Shown here piece by piece: positions 1-11,126 of a DNA stretch of 11,126 nucleotides (position 1 is its first letter; every line of letters starts with the position of its first letter). Source of the DNA: a virus; the UHGV virus genome UHGV-0334114. The stretch is one strand, 5' to 3'. The notes under the pieces are model-generated. The model was not told the DNA's origin and did no database searches. It saw nothing but the letters and a program-made list of their open reading frames with translations. The translations under genes were made by a program, and so were the position numbers.

Positions 1-276
1 GAATTTTTTGTTCAGGTCTGGGGAAATGGAGCCAACTTCGACAACACGATTTTGCGCCGTTCATACGAACGGCAGGGGATCCCCTGCCCATGGCGTTACT
101 ACAACGATCGCGATGTACGCACAATCGTTGAGCTGGGGAAAGCCATAGACTTCGATGCCAGAACGGCTATTCCATTCGAAGGTGAGCGCCATAATGCACT
201 TGATGACGCCCGTTACCAGGCAAAATACGTTTCAGTTATCTGGCAAAAACTGATCCCGAATCAGGCTGATTTTTAA
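1..276 (+). CDS. 3'-5' exonuclease, DnaQ-like DEDDh family (C-terminal part; gene starts upstream of window)
   Basis: Frame 1 is open from base 1 (EFFVQVWGNGANFD...), so the gene enters from upstream; the listed ORF start at 52 is an internal TTG. Contains GANFD and HNALDDARYQAKY motifs typical of Exo II/Exo III motifs of DEDDh exonucleases. Sits upstream of xis-int, where lambdoid phages carry recombination/exonuclease genes. Confidence 0.7.
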   Translation, partial: EFFVQVWGNGANFDNTILRRSYERQGIPCPWRYYNDRDVRTIVELGKAIDFDARTAIPFEGERHNALDDARYQAKYVSVIWQKLIPNQADF

Positions 277-340
277 TGTTCAACCCCGGTCGTTGCCCAC
301 CAGCTATAGTGGCGGCGACCATGATTAGCGAACGACGCTC

Positions 341-589
341 ATGGCAAGACTTATTCTGCTCACTGAGTGGGCAAAAGAGGAATTCAGTGAACCGGTCCCT
401 ACTCCGAGTACGTTAAGTAAATACGCTAAAGCCGGAATGATATTTCCTCTCCCCAAAAAAGTTGGAAGACGCTGGCGAGTGGATCCGCAAGCTCGCTTTG
501 TCGGAATGGTAAACAAGCCGGAGGTGATCGCCACAGATCACCCTGCTTTGAAGAGGATACTGGAAGATGGCGCGCCCGCGAAAATATAA
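341..589 (+). CDS. xis: excisionase / recombination directionality factor (Xis-like)
   Basis: 82-aa ORF immediately upstream of int, overlapping it by 23 bp (567-589) as xis/int do in lambda. The basic motif IFPLPKKVGRRWRV resembles lambda Xis (IFPPPVKDGREY, from memory). No obvious Shine-Dalgarno, so the start is uncertain. Confidence 0.6.
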   Translation: MARLILLTEWAKEEFSEPVPTPSTLSKYAKAGMIFPLPKKVGRRWRVDPQARFVGMVNKPEVIATDHPALKRILEDGAPAKI

Positions 590-1697
590 AACCGATGTTC
601 CGGGATTATCTCCGTATTTTGACAAAAGAAATAACAAAGTTTACTGGCGTTACAGGCATCCCATAACAGGCAAAAATCACGGTCTCGGCAGTATTGACCA
701 GAAACTGGCAGAAACTATTGCAGCAGAAGCGAACAGCCGTCTTGCCCGGCAGCAAATGGAACAAATGCTCAGTCTGCAGGAGAAAATTATTAGTGATACC
801 GGCGGTTCATCAACCGTTACCATTTTTCTGAATAATTACAGAAAAATTCAACAGGAAAGATATGAAAACGGCGAGATCAAACTCAACACGCTGAAACAGA
901 AAGCGGCCCCTCTCAGGGTATTTGATGAACGTTTTGGCACCAGACCGTTAGATGCCATAACCGTAAAAGATGTGGTATCAGTACTGGAAGAGTACAAGGC
1001 CAGAGGACATAACAGAATGGGACAAATTTTCAGGAAAGTACTGATCGATGTTTTCCGGGAAGCTCAGCAAACGGGCGATGTCCCGCCAGGCTTTAACCCT
1101 GCAGAATCGGCAAAAAAACCGCAGGTGCGGATATCAAGACAGCGACTGACTTTTGATGAGTGGATGATGATTTATAACGCAGCGGAAAAGGATGGTTACT
1201 TTTTACAGCGCGGTATGCTGCTGGCACTGATGACAGGCCAGCGCCTTTCAGATATTTGCAAAATGCAATTTTCGGATATCCGGGATGGTTATCTTCATGT
1301 CGAACAGCAAAAAACAGGAACCCGGATTGCCATCCCTCTGGCTCTGCGTTGCGATAAATTAAATCTCACCCTGGATGATGTGGTGTCATCCTGCCGCGAT
1401 TGCGTTCTTAGTCCGTGGCTATTGCACCACCATCACGCGAAAGGGACAGCTAAGCGCGGCGGGATGGTTAAGCCAGCAACATTAACCGTTGCATTTAAAA
1501 AAGCCCGGGATTCTGTGGATTACAACTGGCGTGCTAATGGCACCCCACCCTCTTTCCATGAGCAGAGATCTTTATCAGAGCGATTGTTCAGAGAGCAGGG
1601 GGTTGATACCAAAATTTTGCTAGGCCATTCGAATCAAAAAATGACCGATATTTACAACGACGCACGCGGTAAGGAATGGAAAAAACTGGTCATTTGA
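567..1697 (+). CDS. int: tyrosine site-specific integrase, lambda Int family
   Basis: 376 aa. The C-terminal catalytic domain aligns by eye to lambda Int: TGQRLSD (Arg), EQQKTG (Lys), FHEQRSLSERL (His/Arg), LLGHSNQKMTDIY (His and Tyr nucleophile). AGAGGA Shine-Dalgarno 9 nt upstream of the ATG at 567. N-terminal arm-binding region is diverged from lambda Int. Confidence 0.95.
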   Translation: MARPRKYKTDVPGLSPYFDKRNNKVYWRYRHPITGKNHGLGSIDQKLAETIAAEANSRLARQQMEQMLSLQEKIISDTGGSSTVTIFLNNYRKIQQERYENGEIKLNTLKQKAAPLRVFDERFGTRPLDAITVKDVVSVLEEYKARGHNRMGQIFRKVLIDVFREAQQTGDVPPGFNPAESAKKPQVRISRQRLTFDEWMMIYNAAEKDGYFLQRGMLLALMTGQRLSDICKMQFSDIRDGYLHVEQQKTGTRIAIPLALRCDKLNLTLDDVVSSCRDCVLSPWLLHHHHAKGTAKRGGMVKPATLTVAFKKARDSVDYNWRANGTPPSFHEQRSLSERLFREQGVDTKILLGHSNQKMTDIYNDARGKEWKKLVI

Positions 1698-1708
1698 TGA
1701 CCAGTTTT
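1680..1708. terminator. bidirectional intrinsic terminator candidate (12-bp perfect inverted repeat overlapping the int stop codon)
   Basis: AAAACTGGTCAT (1682-1693) and ATGACCAGTTTT (1697-1708) are perfect inverted repeats around a 3-nt loop. The stem is flanked by A6 (1680-1685) and T4 (1705-1708), giving a U4 tail on the + transcript (int) and a U6 tail on the - transcript (ompW-like segment). Confidence 0.5.
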
Positions 1709-1738
1709 GCAGAGGGGTTTTGCAGAGGTTTTGCAGAG
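1705..1738 (+). repeat. three direct repeats of TTTTGCAGAG; candidate integrase arm-type binding sites (P' arm)
   Basis: TTTTGCAGAG occurs at 1705-1714, 1718-1727 and 1729-1738, immediately 3' of int. A fourth near-copy AGTTTTGCAGAAGG lies at 1979-1992 on the other side of the proposed core. Placement mirrors lambda P'1-P'3 versus P-arm sites. Confidence 0.45.
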
Positions 1739-1742
1739 AAAA

Positions 1743-1868
1743 TTAAAAACGATATCCTGCGGAGAACATAAACACCCACGGATCCAGTCGTACCGAGTCT
1801 TTTACGGTAGTAACACCAGATTTGTACTTAGCCGTGGTATCGATATCCATGTACCAGACCGGTAGGTT
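1743..1868 (-). pseudogene. ompW: phage-borne 3'-terminal segment of ompW (41 codons plus stop); probable attP core and replacement 3' end of the integration target gene
   Basis: The - strand frame reads NLPVWYMDIDTTAKYKSGVTTVKDSVRLDPWVFMFSAGYRF then stop, preceded by an in-frame TGA at 1869-1871. It matches the OmpW C-terminus as I recall it (...VWYMDIDTTANYKLGGAQQHDSVRLDPWVFMFSAGYRF). No OmpW-like coding continues upstream in any frame, so this is a fragment, not a gene. Confidence 0.6.
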
Positions 1869-2170
1869 TCAAAAAACACAATAACCAATTGTATTTGAAG
1901 CAAAAAACAAGACTTTGAGATGTTTTTTTGTACCTTTTTTTATGTTTTTAACTGTCTGATTTTATTGAAATCTTTTTTAGTTTTGCAGAAGGAATTTTTT
2001 ACTTGATTGTAACTTTTTCGTTTTTTTGGGGCTAATTGACGCGCAATGCTGGGCGGGGAGCGCACAGCCAAAAAAACCGAAATTGACCGCTAATTACTGC
2101 CAATCATCATCGCTCTGATTGAGCGTAAATCATTCAGGTTTTTCAGTTCTTCCTTCTGCTCTCGCTGACG

Positions 2171-2341
2171 TCAATAAATCCCATCATTGCGATCAACCTC
2201 ATCCTTAACCATTGATGCGAGCAGTTCTTCCAGTTTCTGCGCTGACAGCTTTACCTGGTGATCTTCAGCATCTTCCCGGGCTATTGTGGTTCGCGCAGTG
2301 GCTGATTTTGCTGACATCACCACAGGGGGCAGACGGACCAT
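2171..2341 (-). CDS. hypothetical small protein (56 aa), sole ORF of the b-region equivalent
   Basis: ATG at 2341-2339 is preceded by GGAGG about 10 nt upstream. Product is MVRLPPVVMSAKSATARTTIAREDAEDHQVKLSAQKLEELLASMVKDEVDRNDGIY, predicted helical and acidic at the C-terminus. The listed 93-aa version starts at a TTG 4 bp after the tfa stop and has an odd hydrophobic N-terminus. No family recognised. Confidence 0.3.
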   Translation of the reverse strand: MVRLPPVVMSAKSATARTTIAREDAEDHQVKLSAQKLEELLASMVKDEVDRNDGIY

Positions 2342-2455
2342 TGAACCATGGCCTCCGGAACAAATAAGGGCAAAAATAACAACCACTATCGAAAGCTCAC
2401 AAACTAACCGCAGCACGTTCCTGCATACGACGTGTCTGCGGCATAATCCCAATGA

Positions 2456-3040
2456 TTACTCCCTGACAGGGTTCGTAGGCCACTCAATATCAGGTGCAGT
2501 TGATGTATCAACACGGTTCAGCAACACCCGATACTTTTTCCAGGCTTCCAGCAATGAGGTTTCTTCCTCCGTTGCAATTTCCAGATCTGCAGCATCCTGA
2601 AGCGGCGCAATATGCTCACTGGCTACCTGCATCAGGTTGTTTTTTGTTTCTTCCGCCTCCCGGATCCGGAACAGTTTTTCTGCTTCCGTATCCTTCACCC
2701 AGGCTGTGCCGTTCCACTTCTGAAACTCCCCTTCCGGCGATAACCAGGTAACATTTTCCGGTAACGGACCGAGTTCAGAAATAAATAACTCGTCCCCTGA
2801 CGCTACGTCATAAACCGTTTTCCCCCGATGGTCTTCAACGAGATGCCACGATGCCTCATCACTGTTGAAAACAGCCACAAAGCCAGCAGGAATATCTGGT
2901 GGTGCAATATCGGTACTGTTTGCTGGCAGACCTGTATGAGGCGGAATATATGCGTCACCTTCACCAATAAATTCATTAGTTCCGGCCAGCAGATTATAAA
3001 TTTTTATGGTCCGTGCTTGTTCACTCATTCTGAATGCCAT
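2456..3040 (-). CDS. tfa: tail fibre assembly protein (lambda Tfa-like)
   Basis: 194 aa, the same length as lambda Tfa and near-identical to it as I recall ([50 protein letters not shown]...). Its ATG overlaps the stf stop (TAATG). Confidence 0.9.
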
Positions 3041-6000
3041 TATGCAAGCCTCACAATATAGTTAAATGCGATGTTTTTGACGGTGTTTTCCGCGTTACCC
3101 GCAGCGTTAACGGTGATGGTGTGTCCATGTGAACCAATCGCAACGGAGTGCGTATGCGCACCAATACCTACAGTATGTGCATGTGCGCCAGAACTTGCTG
3201 CAGTACCAGACAGCGAGTGGGTATGAGCACCTGCTGACTGTGTCTGAATACGTTGATAATACGATCTATAGGAAGAAGTCTCCGGGCTTACTTGATACTG
3301 TGAATTCTGGACATAAGTGAACCCACCGCCATCATAAAATGCTAACGCAGAACCGCCGCCTCCTGGCCAACGAATACCATTACCATGAGTATGAACACCG
3401 GCAGACCCCGTAGAGCCACTCAGACTGTGCGTATGCGCCCCGGTGTTATTCGTGGATTTAGTGCCGTAATCAAACGACGATGTGGTTTTCGTCCCCAAAT
3501 CCGTACTGGATGCGCTGGCGCTGTGGGTGTGCGATTTTATGCCGTCCTGTTCCTGAGACAATACGGCCCGGCCACTGGCGGGTTTGCCCTTAATCGTCCA
3601 GCCACGCATATCAGGGATCACGCCTGACGGATAAGCCGCTGCAAGTTTCGGGTAGGCAGATTTGTTAAAAGTCTGCCCCTGCATCAGGGCATAACCAGAC
3701 GGAACGGTATCTGATGGCCACGGGATTGGTGCGCCAACTGGGTAGCTTTCTGGTGGAAGATTTTTCGAGGTATAAACTTCTGCCCAGTCTTCCTCAAAAC
3801 CATAACCGTCTCTTGAAGAACGGTAGAACAGACCACGATTTCTGTAATGCGCCTTCATCTGCAGGGTCCGGCAACTTCCGACTCCGGTATAGAAGTTAAC
3901 CAGAATATAGCTGTCGCCAGAGCGGGCGACATTGTAAGCGCCTGATTCGGCATTCCAGGGAACGGCTCCATTCGAATCCGCATAAGCCCCCGTCGAACGT
4001 CGGGCAAATGCACCAATATTTTCCGGCGTGAGGTTAATATCCGCCGAGCCATCAAACTTAACACCGTTAATTTTTGGGGCTGCCGCAAGTTTCGTCGCGG
4101 TATCGGCGTTCCCCTTCAGTGCCCCGGTGATCCCATCAGTAACAGACAACGGACCTGAAATAGTCCCTCCAGTCGTTGGCAGCGCTCCAATATCTGATGG
4201 TGTAGGTTTCTGATGTGAGCTATACATCGTATAAACAACACCACCGGTAACGCTGGAAGGCTTACTCGCTGAATATGTTGGCGAGGTATAAATAGAAACT
4301 GACGCATTTGCAGTACAATCCCAATGGATATTTACACTCGTCGCATAATTGCCAATCTCAACGTAAATATCATATGTATCGCCGGATGTGTTGATCCAGG
4401 CGAAATTCGTTAATCCGACGGCTGTACGCTTCCACAAAGCCCCGGTAATTCCTTTGGGGTTTCCATTGCCTGCTCGTAGAACCAGTTCTGAAATGCCTGC
4501 CTGATGTGGGGAACCGACGTTGTAACCAGCGCCACCAATCAATGCGATGTAAACGATGGAACTCGCTTGTGGCATGGTAACCGTTGCCAGTTTGAACCAC
4601 CCAGCCCCGCCAGAGAAAGAGATCGTTACTGAATTTAAAGTGCCAATATCTTTCGGTGTTAATGTTATATCCGCAGTCAGTGCTTTCCCGTTAACTTTTC
4701 GGTTAGATGGTACCCTGCCATTCGCATTGTCATTCGCTGCTTTAACTGCCTTCGGTGTCGCGGCAAGCGTTTCAGATGTGATGTTGGTCGCACTGCTGAG
4801 CTGTACTATCCCCTTTTTCGTCGTACTTGCATCCTCAAGCGCCACGGCGGATGCAATATCCTCTGCCCGTTTTGCCGCTGTCTCGGCGCGCGTTGCCGCG
4901 GATTCCGCCGTACTTTTGCTCTGTGCTGCCGCCGTCGCACTGCCAGCTGCCTCTGTCGCCTTCGCGGATGCTGTCGTGGCGCTGCCCTTCGCTGCTGACG
5001 CCTGTCTGGTCGCCTCATCTTTTGAAGCAGACGCCGATGATGCCGATGACGCCGCCGAACTGGCGGACGATGCGGCAGCCGTTTTTGAGGATTCTGCGCT
5101 GGTCTCCGACGCTTTCGCGTTCGTCTCCGATGTCTTCGCTGCGGAAGCAGACCTCGCTGCTGCACTGGCCTGTTCAGTGGCTTCGCCAGCCTTCGTTGTG
5201 GCTGTTGAAGCGGACGATGCGGCGCTTTCTGCCGATTTTCCGGCGGCGCTAGCACTGGCTGAGGCCTGCCCGGCACTTGTTGACGCTGCACTGGCAGACG
5301 ACGCAGCCGCTGTTTTTGAGCCTGCTGCTGCGGAGGCACTCTGTGCTGCTGCCGTTTCAGAGGACTTAGCGTTTGTCTCAGACGTCTTTGCCGCCTTCGC
5401 GGAATTTCCTGCCGCCGTTGCCGAGGAAGCGGCATTACTGGCGCTCGAGGCTGCGCTCGTTTCTGATAATTTTGCCGCCTCTTTTGAAGCCGACGCATCT
5501 CTGGCTGAGGTGGCTGCTTCTGACGCTTTCGTGGTCGCGGTGGATGCAGAAGTGGCAGCTGATTGTTGTGACGCTGCCGCATTCGTTTCTGACGTTTTCG
5601 CCGCACCGGCACTGGTGGCCGCCGCGCTTTTTGAGGACTCTGCAGCGGCAGCACTTTTTGATGCTTCAGTGGCCTTTGCTGATGCCGTTCCTGCGCTGGA
5701 AGACGCAGACTGAGCCGACGAAGCGGCCTGTCCGGCTGACGTGCTGGCTGCTCGTGCTGAGCCTGCAGCATCAGTCGCACGGGTTGCCGCCTCACGGGCT
5801 GATGTGCTGGCATCGCTGGCTGATTTCTTCGCGGCTGCCGTGTTCTGTGCCACCGCGGACGCGTTACGCGCCACCTCTTCCACCATCAGTTCAAAGCGGC
5901 GCAGTGCCTCAGGACGGGCATCATCCTCCGTCATGGCACCGAGAAAATCATTCAGCGTACCGGGTCGGGAATCTTCATACACGGTGATGGTCCCGGCATG

Positions 6001-6210
6001 TGACGGCGGGAATCCTTCCACCAACAGAATAACGCTGTACTGACCGTACTCAACGTCCATGCTGTAACGCCCGGCTTCATCCGGATTTTCTGAGGCCAGC
6101 GTGTTCACCACCACCGTGGTGCTGTTACGTTTTGCTTTCAGCTGGATTGTGCAGTTCTGTACCGGTTTTCCTGTGCCGTCTTTCAGTACACCTGAAATCT
6201 TTACTGCCAT
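3040..6210 (-). CDS. stf: side tail fibre protein (Stf; lambda Stf / Rac StfR-like, mosaic)
   Basis: Preferred start is the ATG at 6210 ([26 protein letters not shown]..., as in lambda Stf), with GGGGTGA just upstream; the listed ORF starts at a GTG at 6216. Has a long Ala/Ser/Thr-rich repeat tract, repeated GAHTHSLSG/HxH motifs, and a conserved C-terminus [22 protein letters not shown]. Confidence 0.9.
4820..5860 (-). repeat. in-frame low-complexity Ala/Ser/Thr-rich repeat tract inside stf
   Basis: Reiterated peptide units (AKTSETNA three times, STATTKA.EAT twice, SAASSAS...), with matching nucleotide-level reiteration. This composition generates the long spurious ORFs in other frames (4556-5713 +, 4806-5813 -, 5373-5987 +). 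Confidence 0.7.
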
Positions 6211-6220
6211 ATTCACCCCA

Positions 6221-6274: not shown

Positions 6275-6874
6275 TCAGAATTTATAACCGACACCAACGA
6301 TGAAACTGTTGGTACGCCAGTCACCGCTGCCGGAGCCTTCATAAGCGACATCAACGGCCACGGATTCTGTCGGGTTAAACTGCACGCCAGCCCCCCACGC
6401 CAGAGACGTGTTGCTGTGGCGATCGTCATCACTTCCGGTCAGCACATCGTGCGTTTTCCCCGTATTGTCGGTCACCTGCAGATAATCCCCGGAGAAAGTC
6501 GACACACGGCTGTAAGCCACACCCGCCATCGCATACGCGCTGAACCATTCATTCACGCGCACAGACGGCCCCGCCATCACGCTGAACCAGCGGTTACGCA
6601 CGGAATCTTCATGCCAGCGGGTATCGCTGTAATGCGTTTTTTGCTCATCTTCAGCGTTGGCATAACTGAATGACGTAATCAGCCCCAGCGTGTCCGTAAA
6701 CTCATAACGGTATTTCACGTTAATCCCGTTCAGATTATCGCTGCCGGGAGCGTTCGTACGGGCATGAAGATACCCTGCGCTCAGTGTGGCCTGCTGCTCA
6801 GACGCCCATGCAGGCGCACCGGATACGGCCAGACAGATGGCTGCGGACAAAATGGCTGCACAAACTTTACGCAT
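6275..6874 (-). CDS. lom: outer-membrane protein Lom (Ail/Lom/PagC family beta-barrel), moron
   Basis: 199 aa with an N-terminal signal peptide ([24 protein letters not shown]). The C-terminus [26 protein letters not shown] matches lambda Lom. GAGG Shine-Dalgarno upstream. Sits between J and stf as in lambda. Confidence 0.9.
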
Positions 6875-6941: not shown

Positions 6942-9900
6942 TCAGCTAATCGTGATGCCTGTAGTGGCTTTCTTCATCACCACAACCAGCAAATCGCTGA
7001 TACTTGCTGTGGGATACCAGTTATTTACCAGCCATGCTGACACCGAAAACTCCAGTGTCATGTGACCGTGACCGGCAGGCATATCAATAACGCCACTGTA
7101 AATCAGCGTATTATCCAGCGCGGTACGGTTATAAATTTCAGCACCGTTTTTCCGCACTATCAGACGGCATGAGGAGTAAATATCAGTATGCTCTTTCTCA
7201 TGTTTAGCGCCGCTGAATGCCACCGCCGGAATAACAATCTGCCGGTCAAACGGCTGATCGTCATAAACCCTGACGGTAATGGTTCCTGATGGCCACCGCT
7301 CCGGTGCACGGGAGTCCCGGGGGAAAGCTTTGCCCACTGTTTTAACGAGATCGCCTTCAATCTGGTTCGCGGACAATTTTCCCAGAACCCGACAGTTCTC
7401 GTTAATCGTGACGTTGTTGAGCGTCCCGGAGTTCGCATTCACGTTACCGCTGATATCGGCATTTTTCGCCGTCAGCCGCCCGTCCGGTGTCAGGGAAAAT
7501 GCCGGAGGATTACCGCCGCTGGTAATGGTGGGGGCCGTCAGGCGTTTCAGGAACACTTCATTCATGAATATCTGATCGCCCTGACCAACAAACATCGGCT
7601 TTGTGTTGCCATTCGCAGGATTAATCATCGCAATCCTGTCTGCTGCCAGCAGCACCTGACTCTGCATGCCGTCAGGGGTGTTCTCAATACCGGCACCGAT
7701 ACCCGCAATATAAAGGCGTCCGTCCTGCATCTGCTGCAGCTTCACTGCCCACATGCTGTTCAGGTTATTATTTGTATCAACCTGAACCTTCTGTATCTGC
7801 TGGATCGCTGCACTCTGGTCTTCCAGTTTCTTATTGACGGTCTGTGTTATTTCATTGCTGACATCCGTTATGGACGTCCTGATTTCAGTCAGGTCAGGCG
7901 CAAGCTGACCGTTATCAATCTGCGTCCACAGCTCCTGAGCCAGATGGGTTTTCCCTATCTCGCCTTTGAAAAAATCCAGATAGCCTGATGCATCATCACT
8001 CGGCTGACCGACAGCCTCCACGAATGCCGATTTGCCAACGGTGTTCACACTGCGAACGTAAAAATAATAATCATGGCCCGGTTTGATATTGATACTGGCG
8101 GCTATCCAGTACAGTGCCGTACCAAGATAACGCGCGCTGGTTTCAACCTGCCTGATATCCGCAATCCGTTTTTCCGAGAACCAGAACTCAAACTGTACCG
8201 TCGGATCATAAACCGCAAGATGCGGCGTGGCGGTTATCTGAAAATAGCCCGGCGTCAGCTCAATCCGCGACGGTGCTGCCGGTGCGGCAATCCGGAATGA
8301 TACCGACGCCGGATCACCCTGCTGCCCCCAGGCATTTACCGCCCTGACTGTCAGCCTGTAGTTCCCCAGCGCCAGCTGCCTGAAGCGGTATGTGGTTTCC
8401 GTCGTCCGGGCCGTGCTGACCAGCCGCTCACTGCCGTCATCCGCTGTTACGGTCAGACGGAGCAGGAAGCTCACGCCCTTCACCACCTTCGGCGTGTCCC
8501 AGCAGGCCAGCACCTGATATTCCCCGCTGTCTGCGGTGACTTCGGCAGTCAGGTGCTGCACCGCTGGCGGCGTGACACCATTCACCGTGCCGCTCTGGTC
8601 GCCGTCAAAGTGCGCCCCGTTATCCACGATGGCTTCTTTTTCCGGTACATGCTGCACGGCGGTGATGGCATACGTGCCGTCGTCGTTCTCACGGATACTC
8701 ACGCAGCGGAACAGGCGCTGGCGCAGCGTCGGCAGCTTCAGCCCCCACACGCTGTATCCGGCAACGCCGTCAGGAACACGGCTCACTTTTACCTTCACGC
8801 CGTCGGTGACGGACTGGACCTCCACGCTGACCGGATTGCCACTTCCGTCAACCAGGCTTATCAGCGTGGTACCGGAGGATGGCAGCGTGATTTCACGGTC
8901 GAGCGTCAGCGTCCGGGTCTGGCTGTTCACCGCCAGCACGCGCCCGCCGATGCTGATACCCGCATAGTCATCATCGCAGATTTCAATGACATCCCCCGGT
9001 ACATGGCGAAGCCCTTCCGCACCCACGCTGAAGTCCACGGTCTGCGTTTCCAGCAGTTCCGTTTTAATCAGCCACAGCCCGGCGCGGTGTGCCTGCCCCC
9101 GGCTGGTACAGCCAAAGGCATCCATCTTCGTGACGTTACGACCGTAACGGAGAATGGCCTGCGTATCTTCAACAAGCTCTGTCGCCGTCTCCCAGCCGTT
9201 ATCCGGGTCAATCCAGTTCACCTCAACGGCATTATGGCGGTCCTTCAGGGCGCTGAAGCTGTAGCGGAACGGCGCGCCATCATCCGGCATCACCACATTA
9301 CTGCGGTTATAGGTCCACACCTTATCCGACGGTCGGTCCTGCACGAACGTCAGCGTCTGCCCGTTCCATACCGGCATACAGCGCATCGCCGAGCAGAAAT
9401 CACTGAGAACATCCCACGCCTTACGCTGTGTGGTCAGCCAGGCATTACAGGTGATGCGCGGCTCCGTGCCACCAAAGCCATCCGGCACCGACTGGTCGCA
9501 ATTCTGGCCGATGACATACAGCGCCCATTTGTCCACATCCGCCGCACCGAGACGCTTCCCCATGCCGTAGCGCGGATGGGTCAGCATATCCCACAGACAC
9601 CAGGCCATGTTGTTGCTGTATGCCGGTTTAAACGTCCCGTCCCAGATACCGTTGTATTGCCGCGTCTGCGGGTTATAGTTCGACGGCACCTGCAGAATGC
9701 GCCCGCGAAGATGATAATTACGGCTCACCTGCTGGCTGCCGAACTGCTCCGAATCCACCTGCACGCCGACCAGTGCCGTGTTCGGGTAGCCCTGTTTCAC
9801 ATCGATGATTTCGGTGTATGACGACCAGAGCGTTTTGTTCTGCAGCTGGTCTGTGGTGCTGTCCGGCGTCATCCTGCGCATCCGTATATTGAACGGGCGC

Positions 9901-10421
9901 GGCGGCAGGTTACCCACCACCACCGAGGCCAGATACTGCGAGGTGGTTTTGCCCTTAATGGTGATGTCTTTTTCCGTCACCCAGCCACCATTACGTTGTA
10001 TCTGAACCAGCAGGCGAACTTCCGACGGATTCCTGTCCCCCTTTGAGGTGGTTTCCACCAGTGCCTGCACACCGAAGGTAAAACGCAGTCGGTCAATGTT
10101 TGCCGACGTGATGGTCCGGGTGATCGGCGTGTCGTATTTCACTTCCGTACCCAGTACCGTCTCGGAACCTGATGATTCAAATCCCTCCGGCGGTGTCTGT
10201 TCCTGCTCACCTGCCCGGAACACCACCGTGACACCAGAGATGTTAGTATTCCCCTCACTGTCCAGCACCGGTGTACTGTTCAGCAGCACGCTTTTTAATC
10301 CATCCACCGGACCTTCAACCGGCCCTTCGCTGATGGCATCGATCACACTCAGCAGCTGCGTGGACTTCAGGTTGTCCCTCGCTTCGCGCGGGGTATGCCC
10401 CTTACTGCTTCCTTTACCCAT
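6942..10421 (-). CDS. J: tail tip attachment / host specificity protein J
   Basis: 1159 aa. The N-terminus [34 protein letters not shown] and most of the protein match lambda J as I recall it. GAGGA Shine-Dalgarno directly upstream of the ATG. A central segment and the C-terminal ~150 aa (receptor-binding region) are clearly diverged from lambda J. Confidence 0.95.
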
Positions 10422-10444
10422 TCCTCACACTCCATAAACAACAA

Positions 10445-10487: not shown

Positions 10488-10826
10488 TTATTTACATGCA
10501 TTAACACTATCAGCAAAAATTTTTGGCGTTAATGCTGGTACACGTTCATAAAGAGTAAAACTACTGCCATTTCCTGCTTTTTTGATATCAAGCACAACAT
10601 CATATCCCCCCATAGCCTGTGGAACTAAAAGGCTTACCCCATTCTCAATAGGAAGGGATGTTATAGGTGTTCCATTACCAGCCCATTGTCTGGATATGCA
10701 GCCTGACAATTCATCAATATTTTTTAATGAATTACCTTCCATTACAGGTTTTCCGGATTTTACGTAATCCAAAGACTTACATCCTGTTAAGGCAATAATC
10801 GTGCAGAATAAAATCGTTTTGTTCAT
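10488..10826 (-). CDS. small secreted lipoprotein of unknown function (moron inserted between tail genes I and J)
   Basis: Preferred start is the ATG at 10826, giving MNKTILFCTIIALTGC..., a classic lipoprotein signal peptide with lipobox LTGC; the listed ORF starts 4 codons earlier at a TTG. Mature part is about 95 aa with two further Cys. The gene and its flanks are markedly AT-rich compared with I and J. No good Shine-Dalgarno seen. Confidence 0.7.
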   Translation of the reverse strand: MNKTILFCTIIALTGCKSLDYVKSGKPVMEGNSLKNIDELSGCISRQWAGNGTPITSLPIENGVSLLVPQAMGGYDVVLDIKKAGNGSSFTLYERVPALTPKIFADSVNACK

Positions 10827-10898
10827 ATAGCTAACCAATAGAATAATTATCAGTGTTCGATATAAATATTAAATCAGTTAGAACATGAGTAAATAATA

Positions 10899-11126
10899 TT
10901 ACCGCCCAATTACCACAACCTGACCACCATCCCCTTCATCTGCCGTGCTGATCTCCTGAGATGCCACACGTGACCCCACGCGCATTTCACCGTACAGAAC
11001 AGGCAGGACATTGCCCTGGGCAACCATGTTATCCAGTGAGGAGAAATAGGTGTTCTGTTTGCCGTTATCCGTTGTCTGTGTACGGGGAGTTCTGGCTTTC
11101 GGTGCCAGCATCTGCGCCACACCACC
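10899..11126 (-). CDS. I: tail assembly protein I (C-terminal part; gene starts beyond window end)
   Basis: The frame is open to the window edge (GGVAQMLAPKARTPRTQTTDNGKQNTYFSSLDNMVAQGNVLPVLYGEMRVGSRVASQEISTADEGDGGQVVVIGR then stop), matching the C-terminus of lambda gpI as I recall it. The listed start at 11120 is an internal GTG. Confidence 0.85.
   Translation of the reverse strand, partial: GGVAQMLAPKARTPRTQTTDNGKQNTYFSSLDNMVAQGNVLPVLYGEMRVGSRVASQEISTADEGDGGQVVVIGR

What the first reader, a model, noticed from the sequence alone, without database searches (positions are those of the whole stretch)
6942..7500. J protein is lambda-like over most of its length but has a divergent C-terminal receptor-binding region
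The N-terminal ~800 residues are near-identical to lambda J as I recall it, but the last ~150 residues (...[127 protein letters not shown]) are only loosely similar to the LamB-binding C-terminus of lambda J. A central segment also looks replaced. This modular swap predicts a different receptor or altered host range.
Basis: partly seen in the sequence, partly recalled or inferred. Interest (0 to 1): 0.5.

Follow-up and report, generated by a model that had tools for sequence, protein, structure and literature searches.

The report
Lambda-type J protein with OmpC-binding tip
This prophage's tail-tip protein J matches phage lambda's for its first 820 residues but ends in a different, already characterised receptor-binding domain that uses the porin OmpC instead of LamB; it is the common form in wild E. 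coli, so the finding is real but ordinary.

Summary
J (6942-10421, minus strand, 1159 aa) is 97% identical to lambda J over aa 1-820. It drops to 33% with a 28-residue length difference over aa 821-905, the alpha-helical shaft. It recovers to about 90% nucleotide identity over aa 946-990, then falls to 41% over the Ig-like receptor-binding domain (RBD, aa 1031-1159).

The gene is a mosaic. The hub and FNIII part is lambda-like. The shaft and beta-prism fibre are of the phage 21 type (98% and 95%). The RBD module is 99-100% identical in DNA to O157 prophage PPompW, with one substitution (T1154 for A).

The same module, aa 993-1159, is the part grafted onto lambda J as "gpJ 1A2" by Brödel et al. 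(Nature 2024). That chimera delivers DNA independently of LamB through OmpC. It worked on 20 of 23 OmpC variants, including EDL933's, but not on K-12's.

This RBD's DNA occurs in 3377 of 5426 complete E. coli genomes, and lambda's in 98. Lambda is the outlier. Interest is low.

The parts
6942..10421 (-). Gene J (tail-tip attachment / central tail fibre protein), 1159 aa plus stop codon. The reading frame is intact.
   Evidence: ORF list and translation. NCBIfam NF049904 lambda_TipJ scores 2374.9 bits against a cut-off of 1950 and matches model positions 1-1163 of 1163. Six Pfam J domains are present in order. PDB lambda gpJ 8iyk matches with E=0.
7962..10421 (-). J aa 1-820: hub domains and the two FNIII/Ig domains, of the lambda type.
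   Evidence: 97% aa identity to lambda J and 97-98% to phage 21, mEp460 and 2H10, but only 74-76% to the O157 prophage J proteins (PPompW_EH1846, Stx1_499). Pfam FNIII-A_GpJ, Phage-tail_3, Ig_J and Ig_J_second.
7707..7961 (-). It corresponds to the alpha-helical shaft between FNIII-2 and the beta-prism fibre, and is about 28 residues longer than in lambda.
   Evidence: 33% identity and 28 gap columns against lambda, but 98% to phage 21 and 96% to PPompW_EH1846. Nucleotide identity to lambda is 19-50% here. A single-sequence AF2 model predicts helices at aa 811-836 and 842-912, with pLDDT 86-90 over about aa 849-889. Domain naming follows PMC11101478. This DNA occurs in 3552 of 5426 complete E. 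coli genomes.
7446..7586 (-). J aa 946-992: a conserved island (PMFV...[30 protein letters not shown]) inside the beta-prism fibre. It is the likely crossover site between fibre and RBD modules.
   Evidence: About 90% nucleotide identity to lambda, flanked by 19-66% on both sides. It is conserved in all ten J proteins aligned. Brödel et al. placed their chimera junction at its end, lambda aa 964, which is window aa 992.
6945..7445 (-). J aa 993-1159: the module equivalent to the natural part of the engineered 'gpJ 1A2' chimera. It comprises the end of the fibre plus the RBD.
   Evidence: A frameshift-tolerant alignment to the machine-read 1A2 DNA shows five apparent differences in these 167 residues. 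Four of the five sit at or beside visibly damaged text, and the fifth is T1154 against A. From aa 961 on, DNA identity to PPompW_EH1846 is 99-100%, and the only aa difference there is T1154A.
6945..7337 (-). J aa 1029-1159: the Ig-like receptor-binding domain (Pfam Ig_GpJ_C).
   Evidence: PF12421 E=1.1e-36, covering profile positions 1-135 of 135. The AF2 model of aa 1009-1159 has pLDDT 82.8. The top Foldseek hits are 9wca and 9wcb (A8 gpJ, alone and with OmpC) and 8xck and 8xcj (lambda gpJ, alone and with LamB), with query TM-scores 0.81-0.84. Identity over aa 1031-1159 is 41% to lambda, 63% to phage 21 and 59% to A8.
6275..6874 (-). lom (Ail/Lom outer-membrane protein), immediately downstream of J as in lambda.
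   Evidence: Pfam Ail_Lom E=1e-124. Only 43% identical to lambda Lom.
3040..6216 (-). stf (side tail fibre), 1058 aa. This is the second host-range determinant of the virion.
   Evidence: Pfam phage_tail_N, Collar and Phage_fiber. The C-terminal 234 aa are 68% identical to lambda Stf (orf-314).
2456..3040 (-). tfa (tail fibre assembly protein).
   Evidence: Pfam Caudo_TAP. 94% identical to lambda Tfa.

Best explanation
The gene encodes an intact lambda-family tail-tip protein J assembled from exchangeable modules. The N-terminal 820 residues (hub and FNIII domains, which build and close the tail tip) are of the lambda type. The alpha-helical shaft and beta-prism fibre are of the phage 21 type. 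The last ~170 residues, which carry the Ig-like RBD, are the allele found in O157 prophages (PPompW, VT1-Sakai) and many Stx phages. That allele is the one engineered onto lambda as 'gpJ 1A2'. A virion carrying this J is therefore expected to bind the trimeric porin OmpC rather than LamB, in an OmpC-allele-dependent way: EDL933-type and most natural variants are accepted, K-12-type is not. By analogy with the lambda-LamB and A8-OmpC structures, binding should spread the three RBDs, and that movement should pass up the fibre and shaft to open the tail tip. What is shown here: the sequence mosaic, the near-identity of the RBD module to 1A2 and PPompW, the conserved fold, and the prevalence. What is taken from the literature: OmpC dependence and LamB independence of that module. 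What is inferred: that the module behaves the same way in this J, with its longer shaft and T1154, and that the prophage makes functional tails.
For: The mosaic structure has sharp boundaries. The RBD module is 99-100% identical in DNA to PPompW_EH1846 with a single aa change, and it equals the natural part of gpJ 1A2 within text-recognition noise. [quoted passage not shown] It reaches >75% delivery at the highest MOI for 20 of 23 OmpC variants and fails on G1, G2 and G40. It was also used to target O157 strains. The grafted module alone switched lambda's receptor, so specificity resides in aa 993-1159. The fold is conserved with both solved receptor complexes. J is full length, passes the lambda_TipJ model and has only six private substitutions relative to nine relatives. 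Isolated phages with this RBD class are recorded on E. coli C and ECOR13 and never on K-12, which fits the allele specificity, though only weakly.
Against: No experiment was done on this phage. The 1A2 sequence was available only as machine-read, recoded DNA with dropped letters. Four positions in the module (1050, 1051, 1069, 1109) cannot be read with certainty, and F1069L looks clean in that text. Receptor choice in this family can change with very few mutations. Phage 21, whose RBD is 81% identical to the OmpC-using A8, natively uses LamB and gains OmpC use with one J mutation. The effect of T1154 is therefore untested. The window lies at a junction of adjacent prophages, so whether this prophage is active is unknown.
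Confidence: 0.85

Rival explanations
1. The C-terminus is ordinary allelic variation of lambda J and the phage still uses LamB.
For: The fold and domain family are the same as lambda's RBD. Phage 21, whose RBD is only 48% identical to lambda's, still uses LamB natively, so divergence alone does not prove a change of receptor.
Against: Identity is 41% with sharp module boundaries, not diffuse drift. The near-identical 1A2 module gave about 5% delivery at MOI 50 into LamB+ wild-type MG1655. It gave efficient delivery into the lamB/ompC double-deletion strain once a suitable OmpC was supplied.
Confidence: 0.04
2. The RBD uses OmpC plus another porin, or a shifted set of OmpC alleles, because of T1154 or the different fibre and shaft context. 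Under this reading the 1A2 data transfer only partly.
For: Single J mutations expand receptor use in phage 21 and lambda. T1154 is absent from all nine relatives aligned, although an RBD DNA sequence identical to the window's occurs in other E. coli genomes. The shaft is 28 residues longer than in the lambda backbone used for 1A2.
Against: The difference is one conservative Ala/Thr change six residues from the C-terminus. Natural J proteins with this RBD (PPompW, 640R1) already carry the long shaft, so the long shaft with this RBD is the native combination.
Confidence: 0.08
3. The gene is a relic in a defective prophage. It is conserved in sequence but no longer makes infectious tails, so its receptor specificity has no present function.
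For: The window spans a junction where a tail-gene block abuts the int-xis end of another prophage at ompW, with tail-fibre gene fragments between them. Most E. coli genomes carry several copies of this RBD (median 2 places per genome), and many of these are likely in cryptic prophages. C211G and R640C change residues otherwise conserved in the relatives.
Against: The 1159-codon frame is uninterrupted, and lom, stf, tfa and the 3' end of I around it are also intact. J is 98% identical to that of the phage vB_EcoS-640R1.
Confidence: 0.1

Closest known systems
Phage lambda gpJ (NP_040600 / P03749; PDB 8iyk, 8xck, 8xcj), whose receptor is LamB
   Same: Same protein family, the same domain order and 97% identity over aa 1-820. 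The fold of the Ig-like RBD is the same (TM 0.83-0.84). The gene neighbourhood I-J-lom-stf-tfa is also the same.
   Different: The shaft segment is 33% identical and 28 residues shorter in lambda. The RBD is only 41% identical. The window's RBD module does not work through LamB according to the published 1A2 data.
gpJ 1A2 chimera (Brödel et al., Nature 2024, PMC11338833) and its natural counterparts: J of O157 prophage PPompW, VT1-Sakai and many Stx1a/Stx2a phages
   Same: Window aa 993-1159 equals the grafted 1A2 part within text-recognition noise, apart from T1154A. DNA identity to PPompW_EH1846 is 99-100% from aa 961 on. 57 phage records carry this RBD class at 88% identity or more.
   Different: 1A2 has a lambda backbone with the short shaft. 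PPompW's N-terminal 735 aa are only 68-80% identical in DNA to the window. The window combines a lambda-like hub with this RBD, as does phage vB_EcoS-640R1 (97-99% identity in every segment).
gpJ A8, equal to the J RBD of phage 2H10 (PDB 9wca closed; 9wcb open, with OmpC G17 of EDL933)
   Same: An OmpC-using member of the same RBD family and the best structural and sequence match in the PDB (E=4e-118; TM 0.81-0.82).
   Different: Only 59% identical over the RBD, with a 6-residue and a 5-residue length difference in two places. A8 accepts K-12 OmpC and 1A2 does not.
Phage 21 J (UMO75436, 1160 aa), whose native receptor is LamB and which gains OmpC use with one mutation
   Same: The long shaft (98%) and the fibre (95% and 92%) match, and total length differs by one residue.
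   Different: The RBD is 63% identical and the native receptor is reported as LamB.

Membership tests
Lambda-type tail-tip attachment protein J (NCBIfam NF049904 lambda_TipJ) | Full-length match above the curated cut-off | tested here: met
   2374.9 bits against a cut-off of 1950; residues 1-1159 match model positions 1-1163 of 1163.
Lambda-type tail-tip attachment protein J (NCBIfam NF049904 lambda_TipJ) | Domain order FNIII-A, Phage-tail_3 hub, Ig_J, Ig_J_second, Phage_Tail_Tip fibre, Ig_GpJ_C | tested here: met
   All six Pfam domains are present in that order with E-values from 1e-31 to 1e-42.
Lambda-type tail-tip attachment protein J (NCBIfam NF049904 lambda_TipJ) | Gene context: downstream of tail assembly gene I and upstream of lom, stf and tfa | tested here: met
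   The C-terminus of gpI is at 10899-11126, and lom, stf and tfa lie downstream. One extra small ORF is inserted between I and J.
Lambda-type tail-tip attachment protein J (NCBIfam NF049904 lambda_TipJ) | Forms a trimer that closes the tail tip and extends the central fibre | not testable with these tools
   Inferred from 97% identity to the solved lambda hub region.
LamB-binding lambda RBD allele | Close sequence identity to lambda J aa ~1003-1132 | tested here: not met
   41% identity over aa 1031-1159.
LamB-binding lambda RBD allele | Infection depends on LamB | not testable with these tools
   By proxy it is not met: the near-identical 1A2 module gives about 5% delivery at MOI 50 into LamB+ MG1655 and works in a lamB deletion background.
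1A2 / PPompW-type OmpC-binding gpJ RBD | Near-identity over the transplantable module (lambda aa 965 to the end, which is window aa 993-1159) | tested here: met
   At least 162 of 167 residues match the machine-read 1A2 sequence, probably 165-166 of 167. One substitution relative to PPompW_EH1846.
1A2 / PPompW-type OmpC-binding gpJ RBD | Ig-like RBD fold shared with solved gpJ-porin complexes | tested here: met
   AF2 pLDDT 82.8; Foldseek TM 0.81-0.84 to 9wca, 9wcb, 8xck and 8xcj.
1A2 / PPompW-type OmpC-binding gpJ RBD | OmpC-dependent, LamB-independent entry that is selective for OmpC alleles | not testable with these tools
   Published for the 1A2 chimera only.
A8 / 2H10-type OmpC-binding RBD (PDB 9wca, 9wcb) | Same allele (high identity, same loop lengths) | tested here: not met
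   59% identity, with 9 gap columns from two length differences. It is related but is a different allele.
Phage 21-type J | Long alpha-helical shaft and phage 21-type fibre | tested here: met
   98% identity over aa 821-905 and 95% over aa 906-990.
Phage 21-type J | Phage 21-type RBD | tested here: not met
   63% identity over aa 1031-1159. Nucleotide identity drops from 92% to 57-66% after about aa 1010.

The most novel reading that the evidence does not exclude
This RBD allele is the most widespread J tip in wild E. coli, yet its tested twin cannot use K-12 OmpC. The commonest lambdoid receptor specificity may therefore have gone largely unseen in K-12-based phage genetics. Its OmpC-allele selectivity, possibly tuned by small changes such as T1154 or by the longer shaft, could help determine which E. 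coli lineages exchange lambdoid and Stx prophages. A separate idea is that the uncharacterised lipoprotein gene inserted between I and J could be a receptor-masking superinfection-exclusion factor.
Probability: 0.2. Interest if true: 0.45.

Novelty: already known. Interest (0 to 1): 0.15.

Why it matters
It matters mainly as calibration. Lambda's LamB-binding J tip is not typical of natural lambdoid prophages; the form seen here is the typical one. Knowing that this allele targets OmpC in an allele-selective way helps predict the host range of lambdoid and Shiga-toxin prophages, and it is already used to build OmpC-targeted delivery particles. Nothing in the window extends that knowledge beyond one more natural combination of known modules.

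Tried and rejected
1. I looked for receptor data on natural phages carrying this RBD. The receptor-prediction preprint 10.64898/2026.04.02.716166 covers Drexlerviridae-type GpJ only and has nothing on lambdoid J tips. PMC12315714 is not the source of the PhiR phages and gives no receptor data. No paper describing PDB 9wca or 9wcb was found in the library.

2. I tested whether divergence from lambda, A8 or phage 21 is concentrated in the loops of the predicted Ig-like domain. It is not: strands are 39-64% identical and loops 44-66%. The RBD is a wholly different allele, not a re-looped one.

3. Plain tblastn of the window's C-terminus against the machine-read 1A2 DNA gave fragmented hits of 46-60% identity, because letters were dropped in the text. 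I replaced it with a frameshift-tolerant alignment.

4. I asked whether the I-J lipoprotein ORF goes with this RBD type. Among the fetched loci it occurs only in SCU-125. It is absent from PPompW_EH1846 and 640R1, which carry the same RBD, and absent from the whole phage collection. No link was found.

5. The single-sequence AF2 model of aa 800-940 is confident only over part of the helical shaft (mean pLDDT 63) and says nothing reliable about the beta-prism part.

6. The reading 'within normal allelic variation of lambda J' was rejected on the sharp boundaries and the 41% identity.

Full report
**What is in the window.** The minus strand carries, from high to low coordinates:
- the 3' end of tail assembly gene I (10899-11126);
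- a small ORF (10488-10838);
- J (6942-10421, 1159 aa);
- lom (6275-6874);
- a 1058-aa side tail fibre gene stf (3040-6216);
- tfa (2456-3040).

The plus strand carries a lambda-type integrase (567-1697). The best genomic match is E. coli SCU-125 at 99.4% identity. There the same tail block abuts the int-xis-exo end of a neighbouring prophage at a fragment of ompW.

**Checking the observation.** Against lambda J, identity by segment is as follows.

| J residues | Identity to lambda J |
|---|---|
| 1-820 | 97% |
| 821-905 | 33%, with 28 gap columns |
| 906-990 | 78% |
| 991-1030 | 62% |
| 1031-1159 | 41% |

Nucleotide identity in 90-nt windows shows abrupt steps. It is 91-98% up to about aa 800, 19-64% from about aa 811 to 930, about 90% over aa 946-990, and 49-66% from about aa 997 to the stop. 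GC content also dips to 0.48 around 7751-8250, against 0.58-0.64 in the windows spanning 8001-9500. The observation, including the 'replaced central segment', is confirmed and is not a chance pattern.

**What the pieces are.** J passes the curated lambda_TipJ model over its whole length and has the six Pfam J domains in order. I use the domain names of the lambda gpJ structures (PMC11101478).
- aa 1-820 are the hub and the two FNIII domains.
- aa 821-905 fall in the alpha-helical shaft.
- The following stretch is the beta-prism central straight fibre.
- aa 1029-1159 are the Ig-like receptor-binding domain (RBD).

A single-sequence AF2 model predicts helices over aa 811-836 and 842-912, with pLDDT 86-90 for about aa 849-889. 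This fits a shaft about 28 residues longer than lambda's. An AF2 model of aa 1009-1159 (pLDDT 82.8) has as its best PDB matches the A8 gpJ fibre, closed and bound to OmpC (9wca, 9wcb), and the lambda fibre, closed and bound to LamB (8xck, 8xcj). Query TM-scores are 0.81-0.84. The fold is conserved. The sequence differs throughout the domain, in strands as much as in loops.

**Mosaic parentage.** Comparison with nine other J proteins gives this picture:
- The hub and FNIII part is 97-98% identical to lambda, phage 21, mEp460 and 2H10, but only 74-76% to the O157 prophage J proteins.
- The shaft and fibre are 98% and 95% identical to phage 21 and 96-98% to PPompW_EH1846.
- From aa 961 to the end the DNA is 99-100% identical to PPompW_EH1846, with a single amino-acid difference (T1154 against A).
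- Phage 21 stays at about 80% nucleotide identity or more until about aa 1020, then falls to 47-66%.
- The conserved island at aa 946-992 lies between the two variable blocks and is the obvious crossover point.
- Phage vB_EcoS-640R1 has the same overall combination, at 97-99% in every segment.

**Which receptor.** Brödel et al. [quoted passage not shown] Lambda residue 964 corresponds to window residue 992, the G of ...ADISG. Their supplement prints the DNA of 'GpJ 1A2'. That text is recoded and machine-read with dropped letters, so I aligned it to the window protein while allowing frameshifts.

Across the aligned stretch (aa 942-1159 and the stop codon), 201 codons match exactly and 9 more are compatible. 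Within aa 993-1159 there are five apparent differences. Four of the five sit at or beside damaged text, though F1069L reads cleanly there. The fifth is A for T at 1154, and A is also the residue in PPompW and 640R1. The window's RBD module is therefore the 1A2 allele.

The published data for 1A2 are these:
- It delivers efficiently into MG1655 deleted for lamB and ompC when EDL933 OmpC is supplied, and not when K-12 OmpC is supplied.
- It reaches only about 5% delivery at MOI 50 into wild-type, LamB+ MG1655.
- Across 23 OmpC variants it reaches >75% delivery at the highest MOI for 20 and fails on G1, G2 and G40.
- It was later used to target O157 strains.

Grafting this module alone changed lambda's receptor. 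I therefore infer that the window's J uses OmpC, independently of LamB and selectively among OmpC alleles. The conformational relay (RBD spreading, fibre twist, shaft flip, tip opening) is inferred by homology with the solved lambda-LamB and A8-OmpC complexes.

**A caution.** Receptor identity does not follow sequence clusters in this family. Lambda and phage 21 both use LamB natively yet share only 48% RBD identity. Phage 21 (LamB) and A8 (OmpC) share 81%, and one J mutation gives phage 21 the use of OmpC. The assignment here rests on near-identity to a tested module, not on membership of a class, and the effect of T1154 is untested.

**How common it is.**

| DNA segment | Complete E. coli genomes with a match (of 5426) |
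|---|---|
| Window RBD | 3377 (1004 records at 99% or more) |
| Window shaft segment | 3552 |
| Lambda RBD | 98, all at 99% or more; the five records listed are laboratory strains (DE3-type and K-12/B derivatives) |

In the phage collection, 57 records carry this RBD class at 88% identity or more. They include VT1-Sakai, the PPompW prophages, many Stx1a and Stx2a phages, P-EibA and several PhiR isolates. The PhiR isolates of this class are recorded on E. coli C or ECOR13; none of the 57 records lists K-12 as host. Lambda is the unusual one, and this J is the ordinary wild form.

**Functional state.** The frame is intact. Only six residues are private relative to nine relatives: K15R, C211G, S257N, R640C, A845T and A1154T. 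Whether the prophage is active cannot be told from the window, which lies at a junction of adjacent prophages.

**Verdict.** However, the module, its receptor and its use in engineering are already published, and the allele is ubiquitous. The finding is already known and of low interest.

Noticed in passing
window 10488-10826 (-), between gene I and gene J: A low-GC (about 0.39) ORF encodes a ~112-aa protein with a lipoprotein signal (MNKTILFCTIIALTGC...). It is inserted where lambda has only 60 nt. It matches phrog_914 (unknown function) and no Pfam or NCBIfam family. It has no tblastn hit in the 50,697-record phage collection, but it is present next to gene I in 337 of 5426 E. coli genomes. 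A phage lipoprotein beside the receptor-binding gene recalls T5 Llp and Cor-type exclusion factors (from my own knowledge). Among the fetched loci its presence does not track the RBD type.
   Followed up: partly
window 1-2456; ompW fragment at about 1743-1868 (-): The integrase (567-1697, +) is followed by a 3' fragment of ompW (...DPWVFMFSAGYRF) and then remnants of tail-fibre genes before tfa. In E. coli SCU-125 the same junction joins the tail end of one prophage to the int-xis-exo-dicB end of another. That record also holds about 1 kb more, including a class I SAM-dependent methyltransferase gene, which the window lacks.
   Followed up: partly
window about 4800-5890 (-), inside stf: Residues ~110-470 of Stf are a long Ala/Ser/Thr-rich repetitive stretch. 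This makes the protein 1058 aa. The region has GC 0.60-0.62 and strong AT skew, and it generates long, probably spurious overlapping ORFs: 4556-5713 on the plus strand and 4806-5813 on the minus strand in another reading frame. The receptor-binding tip (aa 825-1058) is 68% identical to lambda Stf, with differences in the His-rich repeat region.
   Followed up: no
window 6275-6874 (-): Lom is only 43% identical to lambda Lom, although J upstream and Tfa downstream are 94-97% lambda-like in their conserved parts. lom is therefore another swapped cassette.
   Followed up: no
J aa 211 and 640 (window about 9789-9791 and 8502-8504): Two of the six private substitutions involve cysteine. C211G removes a Cys present in all nine relatives compared. 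R640C adds a Cys where the relatives have Arg or Lys.
   Followed up: no
related loci L004 (phage 21), L009 (2H10) and PDB 9wca: The engineered A8 RBD is 100% identical to the RBD of phage 2H10 and 81% identical to that of phage 21. Phage 21 is reported to use LamB natively, while lambda, also a LamB user, shares only 48% with phage 21. Receptor use in this RBD family therefore does not map simply onto sequence clusters.
   Followed up: partly
window 8553-9821 (+) and 10048-10437 (+): Long antisense ORFs (422 and 129 aa) lie inside the GC-rich part of J. They are most likely by-products of composition, not genes. Neither was submitted to a family search.
   Followed up: no
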